Source of the DNA: Candidatus Woesearchaeota archaeon
GTDB lineage: Archaea > Nanobdellota > Nanobdellia > Pacearchaeales > GW2011-AR1
Assembly: GCA_964413095.1 (NCBI GenBank)
Contig: CAYPRJ010000003.1
Location: forward strand, 1-60,172
Direction: 5' to 3'
DNA: 60,172 bases
The position numbers were made by a program, and so were the translations under genes. Numbering within the stretch: position 1 is the first letter of the stretch; every line of letters begins with the position of its first letter. Positions 57,602 to 57,688 of this stretch are shown here, piece after piece. The notes below the pieces were generated by a model. The model did not search any database. It was not told the origin of the DNA and worked only from the letters and a program-made list of their open reading frames with translations.

Positions 57602-57688
57602 TTATTTGCACTTACAGCATTCTTTACAACATCCGCATTTTTTACAGACATTCCTTACTTTCTCTTTACAAGATTTGCACTTAGCCAT
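57602..57688 (-). CDS. 28-aa metallothionein-like peptide (MAKCKSCKEKVRNVCKKCGCCKECCKCK)
   Basis: GAGGTG SD 2 nt before ATG; 9 Cys and 9 Lys; clean TAA. Confidence 0.75.
   Translation of the reverse strand: MAKCKSCKEKVRNVCKKCGCCKECCKCK

What the first reader, a model, noticed from the sequence alone, without database searches (positions are those of the whole stretch)
57602..57688. Unannotated 28-aa metallothionein-like peptide
Seen: MAKCKSCKEKVRNVCKKCGCCKECCKCK has 9 Cys and 9 Lys, no aromatic residues, CxxC/CC/CxC clusters, a GAGGTG Shine-Dalgarno and an upstream TATA-like TTTAAAAA. It is below the ORF-track cutoff. Established: this composition typifies metallothioneins, which are poorly documented in archaea. 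Inference: a minimal metal-binding peptide in a DPANN archaeon.
Basis: partly seen in the sequence, partly recalled or inferred. Interest (0 to 1): 0.7.

Follow-up and report, generated by a model that had tools for sequence, protein, structure and literature searches.

The report
Conserved eight-cysteine archaeal microprotein gene
The 28-codon cysteine-rich reading frame is a real, previously unannotated gene from a small undescribed family of 27-62-residue, eight-cysteine (probably metal-binding) proteins found in tiny DPANN archaea, though whether it acts like a metallothionein is still untested.

Summary
The ORF is there exactly as described (57602-57688, minus strand; 9 Cys, 9 Lys, GAGGTG 2 nt before ATG). 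It is not a chance frame.

- **Family.** It belongs to a family with the fixed skeleton M-x2-C-x2-C-x7-C-x2-C-x2-C-x2-C-(0-1)-C-x-C.
- **Own taxonomic family.** I found members in about six other genera (36-62 aa, with acidic or basic tails).
- **Other families of the class.** There are stand-alone 27-33-aa forms, for example MEECPMCGEEVAKLCPDCGECEDCCEC.
- **Selection.** Orthologues are under purifying selection (pN/pS 0.06-0.20). Cys codons change only synonymously.
- **Translation signal.** An SD-like motif recurs before the start codon.
- **Leave-one-out test.** A family profile built without this ORF picks it as the best of 28,604 six-frame segments of its genome (E=0.0024).
- **Known families.** No Pfam, NCBIfam, PHROG, PDB or Foldseek match is significant. 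The N-terminal half looks like a C(P)XCG zinc ribbon.
- **Annotation.** The minimal forms are absent from a 15-billion-protein collection.

Most likely it is a two-site, Cys8 metal (zinc) microprotein. Core net charge runs from -8 to +7 across the family, so the metal/thiol chemistry looks like the conserved property, not a surface. A metallothionein-like role remains possible, but membership of a known metallothionein family is not shown. No expression data exist.

The parts
57605..57688 (-). Coding sequence of the 28-residue microprotein MAKCKSCKEKVRNVCKKCGCCKECCKCK. Family-conserved Cys at residues 4, 7, 15, 18, 21, 24, 25 and 27, plus an extra Cys20.
   Evidence: family alignments; leave-one-out profile E=0.0024, best hit in the genome
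57602..57604 (-). Stop codon TAA. It directly abuts the duplicated copy of the rpS10 stop codon (57599-57601, + strand).
57690..57696 (-). Shine-Dalgarno-like GAGGTGA, 1-2 nt before the ATG. GGAGG/GGTGA-type motifs recur before the start codon of most family members.
   Evidence: upstream regions of homologues; genome-wide SD statistics
57702..57720 (-). AT-rich upstream boxes: TTTAAAAA (57702-57709, -21..-14) and TTTAGATA (57713-57720, -32..-25). Possible TATA elements; function not shown.
   Evidence: spacing argument from established archaeal promoter geometry (inference)
57580..57584 (-). T5 run 18-22 nt after the stop codon (archaeal terminator-like). It lies inside the 31-bp repeat.
   Evidence: sequence only
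57573..57603 (.). Right copy of an exact 31-bp direct repeat (left copy 56085-56115) that brackets an AbiEi/AbiEii-type insertion. Without the insertion, the microgene sits tail-to-tail with rpS10 (55805-56113, +).
   Evidence: D5, 100% identity, spacing 1488

Best explanation
The ORF is a genuine protein-coding gene. It is the minimal form of an undescribed family of DPANN-archaeal microproteins (27-62 aa).

The only invariant feature of the family is a fixed array of metal-ligand residues within about 25 residues: seven invariant Cys plus an eighth ligand that is Cys in this branch and His in another.

The protein most likely folds around two tetrahedral metal (zinc) sites.
- The first site is an N-terminal C(P)XCG-type zinc ribbon (Cys4, 7, 15, 18).
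- The second is a very compact C-terminal knuckle: Cys21, 24, 25, 27 here, and Cys3His in one subfamily.

Everything outside the ligands drifts, including core net charge from -8 to +7. Lineage-specific acidic or basic tails come and go. The conserved function is therefore probably centred on the bound metal or the thiols (holding, buffering or handing over metal, or redox), not on one conserved docking surface.

Shown: the ORF exists, homologues exist, the Cys spacing is conserved, selection is purifying, and no known family matches. Inferred: translation in this organism, metal binding, metal identity, stoichiometry and cellular role.
For: **Homologues.**
- Same taxonomic family: G318=P0001, P0002, P0007, P0008, G064, G415, G423, P0009, and the g17 and g80 groups.
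- Other families of the same class: 27-33-aa forms in G810, G848, G946, G993 and G997, with a stop codon right after the last Cys region.
- G423, P0009, G064 and all the minimal forms share the window's exact C-x2-C-C-x-C ending.

**Significance of the match.**
- A profile of 19 members without the window ORF ranks it first of 28,604 six-frame segments of its own genome, E=0.0024.
- The strict skeleton occurs once in the genome.

**Selection.**
- pN/pS is 0.06-0.20 at pS 0.45-0.94 in seven of eight orthologue pairs.
- G848 against G946: 9 synonymous and 6 non-synonymous codon differences. Five of eight Cys codons changed TGT<->TGC and none was lost.

**Gene-like setting.**
- SD-like motifs precede the start in most members.
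- Synteny LysRS / gene / acylphosphatase is conserved in genera g61 and g160.

**Metal-site reading.**
- Sub-threshold similarity of the first half to Zn_ribbon_3 (E 0.04) and to the bL32 zinc ribbon (E 0.012).
- The AF2 model of P0009 has core pLDDT 82-91, with a beta-hairpin followed by a helix.
- The best, though non-significant, Foldseek hits are small zinc-binding domains, several of them two-zinc (PHD, MYND, B-box, RING).
- A Cys-to-His ligand swap occurs in the g17 and g80 subfamily.
- Charge spread is tabulated.
Against: - No transcript, ribosome-profiling or peptide evidence; no RNA run holds the region.
- The window genome has no close relative, so selection cannot be measured on this copy itself.
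- After bias correction the leave-one-out score is modest (18 bits).
- Four Cys within seven residues (C-x2-C-C-x-C) is an awkward geometry for one tetrahedral site and fits a shared-thiolate cluster at least as well.
- In Haloferax volcanii, 5 of 14 purified C(P)XCG proteins held no zinc, and AlphaFold2 cannot tell binders from non-binders (PMC11241148).
- Structure and profile similarities to zinc ribbons are all below significance.
- The gene sits in a toxin-antitoxin-rich island beside a decayed PIN gene, so this copy could be on its way out.
Confidence: 0.6

Rival explanations
1. It is a true metallothionein-like peptide. The eight or nine thiolates hold a polynuclear metal-thiolate cluster with bridging sulfurs, such as M3Cys9 or a Cu(I) cluster. 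The peptide buffers or detoxifies Zn, Cd or Cu.
For: - 32% Cys, no aromatic residue or His, and CC, CxC and CxxC motifs in the window peptide.
- Non-Cys positions are hardly conserved and net charge flips from -8 to +7, as expected if only the thiolate array matters.
- C-x2-C-C-x-C packs four thiols too tightly for a classical single site (inference).
- The window copy has a ninth Cys.
- Metallothioneins are defined by composition and metal-thiolate clusters, not by one fold (PMC7558416).
Against: - No match to any metallothionein model.
- The first four Cys have zinc-ribbon spacing and motifs.
- Several members carry Trp, Phe, Tyr or His, and one subfamily swaps a Cys for His.
- No metal-resistance or metal-sensor gene lies next to any member.
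- The gene is present in only a few percent of related genomes.
Confidence: 0.2
2. It is a minimal iron-sulfur peptide: a [4Fe-4S] or rubredoxin-like Fe(Cys)4 carrier that uses the C-x2-C-x2-C-x2-C run.
For: - Cys15 to Cys24 form C-x2-C-x2-C-x2-C.
- g80 members read C-x2-C-x2-C-x3-C-P, the ferredoxin motif. They give weak Fer4_10 (E 0.026) and FdxA (E 0.045) hits.
Against: - Those hits are far below the curated cut-offs and limited to one subgroup.
- The window peptide and the minimal forms lack the C-x3-C-P ending.
- No redox-enzyme neighbour is conserved.
Confidence: 0.07
3. In this genome the ORF is not expressed or is a decaying remnant. It would be a family member stranded at the edge of a toxin-antitoxin island and no longer functional.
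For: - The next gene upstream on the same strand is a frameshifted PIN gene (57844-58232), followed by a gene-tail fragment.
- There is an insertion right at its 3' end.
- There is no well-placed TATA box.
- No RNA data exist.
Against: - All eight family ligands, the start codon, the SD and the native 3' flank are intact.
- The length equals that of the natural 27-33-aa forms, so it is not a truncation.
Confidence: 0.07
4. It is a precursor of a ribosomally made, post-translationally modified Cys-rich peptide (ranthipeptide or SCIFF-like).
For: Small size and Cys richness. One member gives a very weak hit to the Cys-rich-peptide maturase model CcpM (E 0.28). That hit is to the enzyme's own Cys motif, not to a precursor.
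Against: - No radical-SAM or other maturase lies next to any of about 20 members.
- There is no leader/core architecture; conservation starts at residue 1.
Confidence: 0.03

Closest known systems
C(P)XCG zinc-finger mu-proteins of haloarchaea (Haloferax volcanii HVO_2753, HVO_0758; Brz of Halobacterium) - PMC11241148, PMC10716476, PMC6562870, PMC2253796
   Same: Archaeal proteins under 70 aa built around pairs of C(P)XCG knuckles. Family members read CPMCG...CPDCG or CxxCG...CxxCG, and the window reads CKSCK...CKKCG. They are often missed or left as 'hypothetical'. Metal binding is inferred from Cys4.
   Different: - No detectable sequence homology.
- This family is much smaller (27-33 aa in its basic form).
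- It adds four more invariant ligands directly after the ribbon (C-x2-C-C-x-C).
- It is confined, as far as sampled, to one class of DPANN archaea.
Metallothioneins (bacterial SmtA/BmtA, Pfam PF02069; short fungal Cu-metallothioneins, from my own knowledge)
   Same: Size, about 30% Cys, CC/CxC/CxxC motifs, Lys-rich non-Cys positions, and poor conservation outside the Cys residues.
   Different: - No model match.
- Zinc-ribbon-like first half.
- Aromatic residues and His in several family members.
- A metal-thiolate cluster has not been shown.
Cys4 zinc ribbon of bacterial ribosomal protein bL32 / Pfam Zn_ribbon_3 (PF13248)
   Same: The spacing and residues of the first 21 positions align: marCsnCg..keVenvCekC against CPNCGeyKLSHRVCKNCG. 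E=0.012 against PDB sequences. Pfam E=0.04.
   Different: The scores are below curated thresholds and only half of the domain is covered. bL32 is a bacterial ribosomal protein with basic extensions, whereas this family's charge ranges from -8 to +7.
Cross-braced two-zinc mini-domains (PHD, MYND, B-box, RING)
   Same: Eight ligands in a small domain. These folds are among the top Foldseek hits for the AF2 model.
   Different: All hits are non-significant (E>=0.5, TM about 0.4). Ligand spacing differs, and those domains are 40-60 residues long and eukaryotic.

Membership tests
New 8-Cys microprotein family (defined here) | Skeleton M-x2-C-x2-C-x7-C-x2-C-x2-C-x2-C-(0-1 residue)-C-x-C starting at the N-terminus | tested here: met
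   The window peptide aligns without gaps to G423, P0009, G064, G810, G848, G946, G993 and G997. The skeleton is unique in the genome.
New 8-Cys microprotein family (defined here) | Significant score against a family profile that excludes the candidate | tested here: met
   Leave-one-out HMM: top hit of 28,604 segments, E=0.0024, 18.3 bits after a 30-bit bias correction
New 8-Cys microprotein family (defined here) | Family is protein-coding (purifying selection) | tested here: met
   pN/pS 0.06-0.20 in seven of eight orthologue pairs. Cys codons change only synonymously between G848 and G946. This could not be measured for the window copy itself.
Metallothionein (operational definition) | Low mass, Cys about 15-30% or more, arranged as CC, CxC and CxxC | tested here: met
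   28 aa, 9 Cys (32%)
Metallothionein (operational definition) | Few or no aromatic residues and His | tested here: inconclusive
   None in the window peptide. However, Trp, Phe, Tyr or His occur in G848, G946, G423, P0009 and the g17 and g80 members.
Metallothionein (operational definition) | Several metal ions held in metal-thiolate clusters | not testable with these tools
   Needs metal titration, native MS and 113Cd NMR
Bacterial metallothionein SmtA/BmtA (Pfam PF02069) | Match to the family model | tested here: not met
   No Pfam or NCBIfam family at E<=10 for the window peptide. No metallothionein model matched the eight longer members.
C(P)XCG zinc-finger mu-proteins | [quoted passage not shown] | tested here: inconclusive
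   Many members meet it fully (for example CPMCG/CPDCG in G810; CxxCG twice in G848, G946, P0001). The window peptide has CKKCG, but its first knuckle is CKSCK.
C(P)XCG zinc-finger mu-proteins | Zinc actually bound | not testable with these tools
   PMC11241148 shows the motif alone does not guarantee zinc
Zinc ribbon (Pfam Zn_ribbon_3 PF13248) | Score at or above the gathering threshold (27 bits) | tested here: not met
   Best 13.8 bits, E 0.042, for a homologue. Nothing for the window peptide.
4Fe-4S ferredoxin | C-x2-C-x2-C-x3-C-P motif and a match to the Fer4 models | tested here: not met
   The motif occurs only in g80 members. Hits are below cut-off (14.9 bits against 25.5). It is absent from the window peptide.

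The most novel reading that the evidence does not exclude
This is the first metallothionein-type family of Archaea, and one of the smallest natural metal-cluster proteins. A 27-33-residue peptide would use eight (here nine) thiolates to hold a shared-thiolate polynuclear cluster, such as M3Cys9 or a Cu(I) cluster. It would serve ultra-small DPANN cells as a metal buffer or metal hand-over device. That would explain why only the cysteines are conserved while net charge swings from -8 to +7.
Probability: 0.2. Interest if true: 0.75.

Novelty: new variant of a known kind. Interest (0 to 1): 0.52.

Why it matters
- **Hidden genes.** The basic 27-33-aa forms of this family are invisible to standard gene calling. 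None of six such sequences, nor two longer ones, is in a collection of about 15 billion predicted proteins. Only nine tail-bearing relatives are on record, all named 'hypothetical' or unnamed. DPANN genomes with about 700 genes therefore still hide conserved genes.
- **Tractable chemistry.** Eight invariant ligands in about 25 residues is near the lower size limit for a two-metal domain. A 28-mer can be made by chemical synthesis, so metal identity and stoichiometry are directly testable without culturing the organism.
- **Open question.** Metallothioneins do not seem to be documented in Archaea: a full-text search for 'archaeal metallothionein' found no paper. A positive cluster result would fill that gap.
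- **Alternative outcome.** A two-site zinc result would instead define a new minimal zinc-finger type.

Tried and rejected
1. **Single-peptide searches.** Pfam and NCBIfam on the peptide gave nothing. The search for homologous proteins, the search for related loci and AF2 refuse queries this short.
2. **Peptide against 60 relatives.** The hits at E 0.004-0.5 were nearly all the N-terminal zinc finger of translation factor aSUI1 (MNICPKCGLP..ACVCE). These are false positives.
3. **Synteny.** I searched downstream of rpS10 in 30 relatives for a Cys-rich small ORF and found none. The family has no fixed position relative to rpS10.
4. **Degenerate Cys-skeleton DNA patterns.** No family member was recovered and no viral copy was seen. 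These scans are incomplete and are not evidence of absence.
5. **Paralogues in the own genome.** None by blastn, tblastn or HMM.
6. **Sequencing runs.** Only DNA runs of the same microbial-mat study hold the region. They carry the same sequence with no variants, so they give no independent support. No RNA runs were found.
7. **Profile search of 1.84 billion representative proteins** (3-sequence profile): only 3 hits.
8. **Structure and virus libraries.** PDB by sequence and by fold, and PHROGs: nothing significant.
9. **Conserved neighbours.** The neighbours differ between genera: LysRS/acylphosphatase, DnaG, adenylate kinase/GTPase, transporters. The excess of translation-related neighbours is not beyond what a 700-gene genome gives. 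I rejected it as evidence for a ribosomal role, which the charge range also contradicts.

Full report
**Observation**

On the minus strand, 57688-57602 reads ATG...TAA and encodes MAKCKSCKEKVRNVCKKCGCCKECCKCK.
- GAGGTG lies at 57691-57696, two bases before the ATG.
- TTTAAAAA lies at 57702-57709.
- A T5 run follows the stop codon at 57584-57580.
- No tRNA or Rfam family overlaps the region.

The window is contig 3 of a 770-kb, 29% GC, 88%-complete genome assembled from a microbial-mat metagenome.

**Is it more than chance?**

Composition alone is not enough. Five of 20,046 six-frame segments of the genome reach 9 Cys in 28 residues; the other four are rich in F, S, Y and W, like out-of-frame text.

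The SD alone is not enough either. There are 128 GAGGTG sites, and 21 are followed by ATG within 9 nt. About 17-19 such pairs are expected by chance. Fourteen of the 21 open ORFs of 50 aa or more. Only about 10% of long ORFs show GAGG at -14..-8.

What sets this ORF apart is its exact Cys skeleton. It occurs once in the whole six-frame translation and recurs in other genomes.

**Finding relatives**

- Direct searches with the 28-mer failed or returned the aSUI1 zinc finger.
- One hit was different. G318 (same taxonomic family) starts MANCTTCGEESDNVCEKCGNCDSCGCSCK at the first codon of an SD-led ORF.
- This is P0001, a 62-aa 'hypothetical protein' of Candidatus Pacearchaeota archaeon CG1_02_32_132. 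P0002 is 79% identical to it.
- A three-sequence profile, and later 20-sequence profiles, found more.
- In the same taxonomic family, members occur in genera g61, g160, g176, g17 and g80. They are 36-62 aa long. g17 has up to three tandem paralogues downstream of a DnaG-like gene.
- In other families of the same class (1.1-1.3 Mb genomes) there are stand-alone minimal forms:
  - MEECPMCGEEVAKLCPDCGECEDCCEC (27 aa)
  - MRCRSCDEEVDEVCPRCEKCRDCCECQGE (29 aa)
  - MVECDYCGDEVKKVCRECGGCEGCCECGE (29 aa)
  - MAECDFCGDEVKKVCKECGGCPGCCECEQD (30 aa)
  - MPICPQCKREVEDVCPKCGKCRRCCKCNNPKKK (33 aa)
- The 28-residue length is therefore the family's natural basic form, not a truncation.
- A 400-genome sample of the phylum gave hits only within the class.

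**Anatomy of the family**

- Invariant Cys lie at positions 4, 7, 15, 18, 21, 24 and 27/28.
- The eighth ligand varies. It is Cys25 (C-C-x-C; the window, G423, P0009, G064 and all minimal forms), Cys26 (C-G-C-x-C; g61 and g160), or a His three residues after the last Cys (C-x3-C-x2-H; g17 and g80).
- G423 and P0009 combine the window-type Cys ending with the basic tail of the His subfamily. They tie the branches together.
- Besides the Cys residues, only Gly8, Val11 and a hydrophobic residue at 14 are common.
- Core net charge ranges from -8 (G810) to +7 (window). Tails are strongly acidic, basic or absent.

**Is the family coding, and does the window ORF belong?**

- Orthologue pairs give pN/pS 0.06-0.20 with synonymous sites near saturation. 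The one very close pair is uninformative.
- Between G848 and G946, nine codons differ synonymously and six non-synonymously. Five Cys codons switched TGT/TGC and none was lost.
- SD-like motifs (GGAGGT, GGTGA) precede most starts.
- A profile built from 19 members without the window sequence ranks the window ORF first among 28,604 six-frame segments of its own genome, E=0.0024.
- I take the ORF to be a real member with about 90% confidence.
- Expression in this organism is untested. No RNA run holds the region, and the DNA runs are the same population without variants.

**What it is like**

- Nothing in Pfam, NCBIfam or PHROGs reaches significance.
- The first half resembles a Cys4 zinc ribbon: Zn_ribbon_3 at E 0.04, and bL32 of PDB ribosomes at E 0.012 with an alignment over CxxCG...VCxxCG.
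- Many members carry the C(P)XCG motif pair that defines the haloarchaeal zinc-finger mu-proteins (PMC11241148, PMC6562870).
- An AF2 model of P0009 from a 9-sequence alignment has pLDDT 82-91 over the Cys core. It shows a beta-hairpin and then a helix after the last Cys.
- Foldseek against PDB finds only non-significant similarity to small zinc-binding domains: ribosomal S14, PHD, MYND, B-box, RING.
- Weak Fer4 hits are confined to g80 members that happen to read C-x2-C-x2-C-x3-C-P.

**Mechanism**

Best supported, by inference: eight ligands form two tetrahedral sites.
- The zinc ribbon uses Cys4, 7, 15 and 18.
- A compact knuckle uses Cys21, 24, 25 and 27.
- The Cys-to-His replacement in one subfamily is typical of structural zinc sites.

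Nothing but the ligands is conserved, and net charge flips sign between orthologues. A conserved nucleic-acid or ribosome interface is therefore unlikely. The conserved property seems to be the metal/thiol centre itself.

The tight C-x2-C-C-x-C run and the ninth Cys in the window copy would suit a shared-thiolate cluster.

Membership of a metallothionein family is not supported: no model match, a ribbon-like first half, and aromatic residues and His in relatives. C(P)XCG motifs do not guarantee zinc, and AlphaFold cannot decide this (PMC11241148). Metal identity and stoichiometry remain open.

**Surroundings**

- An exact 31-bp direct repeat (56085-56115 and 57573-57603) holds the last codons and stop of rpS10. 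It brackets a 1,488-bp AbiEi/AbiEii-type module.
- Without that module, the microgene lies tail-to-tail with rpS10, with their stop codons adjacent.
- The duplication leaves both genes with their native 3' ends, including the T5 run after the microgene.
- Upstream on the same strand lie a gene-tail fragment and a frameshifted PIN gene with its antitoxin. The gene therefore sits at the edge of a toxin-antitoxin island.
- Contexts of other members differ from genus to genus, and no metal-related neighbour recurs.
- Roughly 16 of 400 sampled genomes of the taxonomic family, and a few percent or fewer of the class, carry the gene. It is a patchy, accessory gene. The first-look filter of the search may miss copies.

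**Promoter**

The TATA reading is not convincing. TTTAAAAA at -21..-14 is too close to the ATG. TTTAGATA at -32..-25 would predict a leaderless mRNA that lacks the SD. Read-through from the upstream genes is another option. None of these could be tested.

**Annotation status and novelty**

- The window peptide, five other minimal forms and two longer members are absent from a collection of about 15 billion predicted proteins.
- Only nine tail-bearing relatives are on record, all unnamed or 'hypothetical'.
- A full-text search for 'archaeal metallothionein' found no paper. I found no description of this family.
- Earlier notes of this scan report other unannotated Cys-rich microproteins in other lineages. 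The general phenomenon is recurrent, and that tempers the surprise.
- I class this as a new variant of a known kind: a zinc-finger-type microprotein with an added Cys4 module. There is a 20% chance that it is a true metal-cluster (metallothionein-type) peptide.

Noticed in passing
window 56085-57603: An exact 31-bp direct repeat (the last codons and stop of rpS10) brackets a 1,488-bp AbiEi/AbiEii-like toxin-antitoxin module. Logan unitigs break exactly at the repeats (k=31). The public contigs therefore cannot tell an integrated copy from a free circle plus empty site. Depths are similar (6-9x).
   Followed up: partly
window 57844-58232 (minus strand): A PIN-domain (VapC-like) gene is split by a frameshift into a 78-aa N-terminal ORF and a 36-aa C-terminal ORF. 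Its upstream antitoxin-like gene (58229-58444) is intact.
   Followed up: no
window 57738-57860 (minus strand) and 58526-58565: A coiled-coil-like open stretch without a start codon (...QEQQTQINELKAEIDKLKETLCDMGRGEWC*) lies just upstream of the microgene. Its last 15 nt (CCTTCCCATATCACA on the + strand) recur at 58526-58540. It looks like the remains of the 3' end of a larger gene.
   Followed up: no
L312 1465-2031 (G515, genus g17); also L313, L339, L308: Three tandem paralogues of the Cys-rich family (43-48 aa, His-containing subtype) lie directly downstream of a DnaG-like (Toprim) gene, on the same strand as and upstream of EF-1alpha. A block of three small genes on the opposite strand, one of them antitoxin-like, is wedged between them and EF-1alpha.
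   Followed up: partly
L288 1638-1762 (G318:C38): A run of 125 N sits inside the acidic EEPAET-repeat tail of the G318 homologue. The same gene is complete (62 aa) in the NCBI record of P0001, so the N run is a gap or masked stretch in the held copy.
   Followed up: yes
L002, L004, L006, L009, L012, L287, L294 (relatives): The N-terminal zinc finger of translation initiation factor aSUI1 (MNICPKCGLPxEACVCE) is the main false positive for any Cys-rich short query in these genomes.
   Followed up: yes
L315 (G228:C5:312434): A 52-aa ORF, MAKCTSCGNESGEVIKFNCPRCNKKLMQRCDKCRSLSIEYKCPCGFEGP, resembles the four-knuckle HVO_2753-type zinc-finger microprotein. It belongs to a different family from the one studied here.
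   Followed up: no
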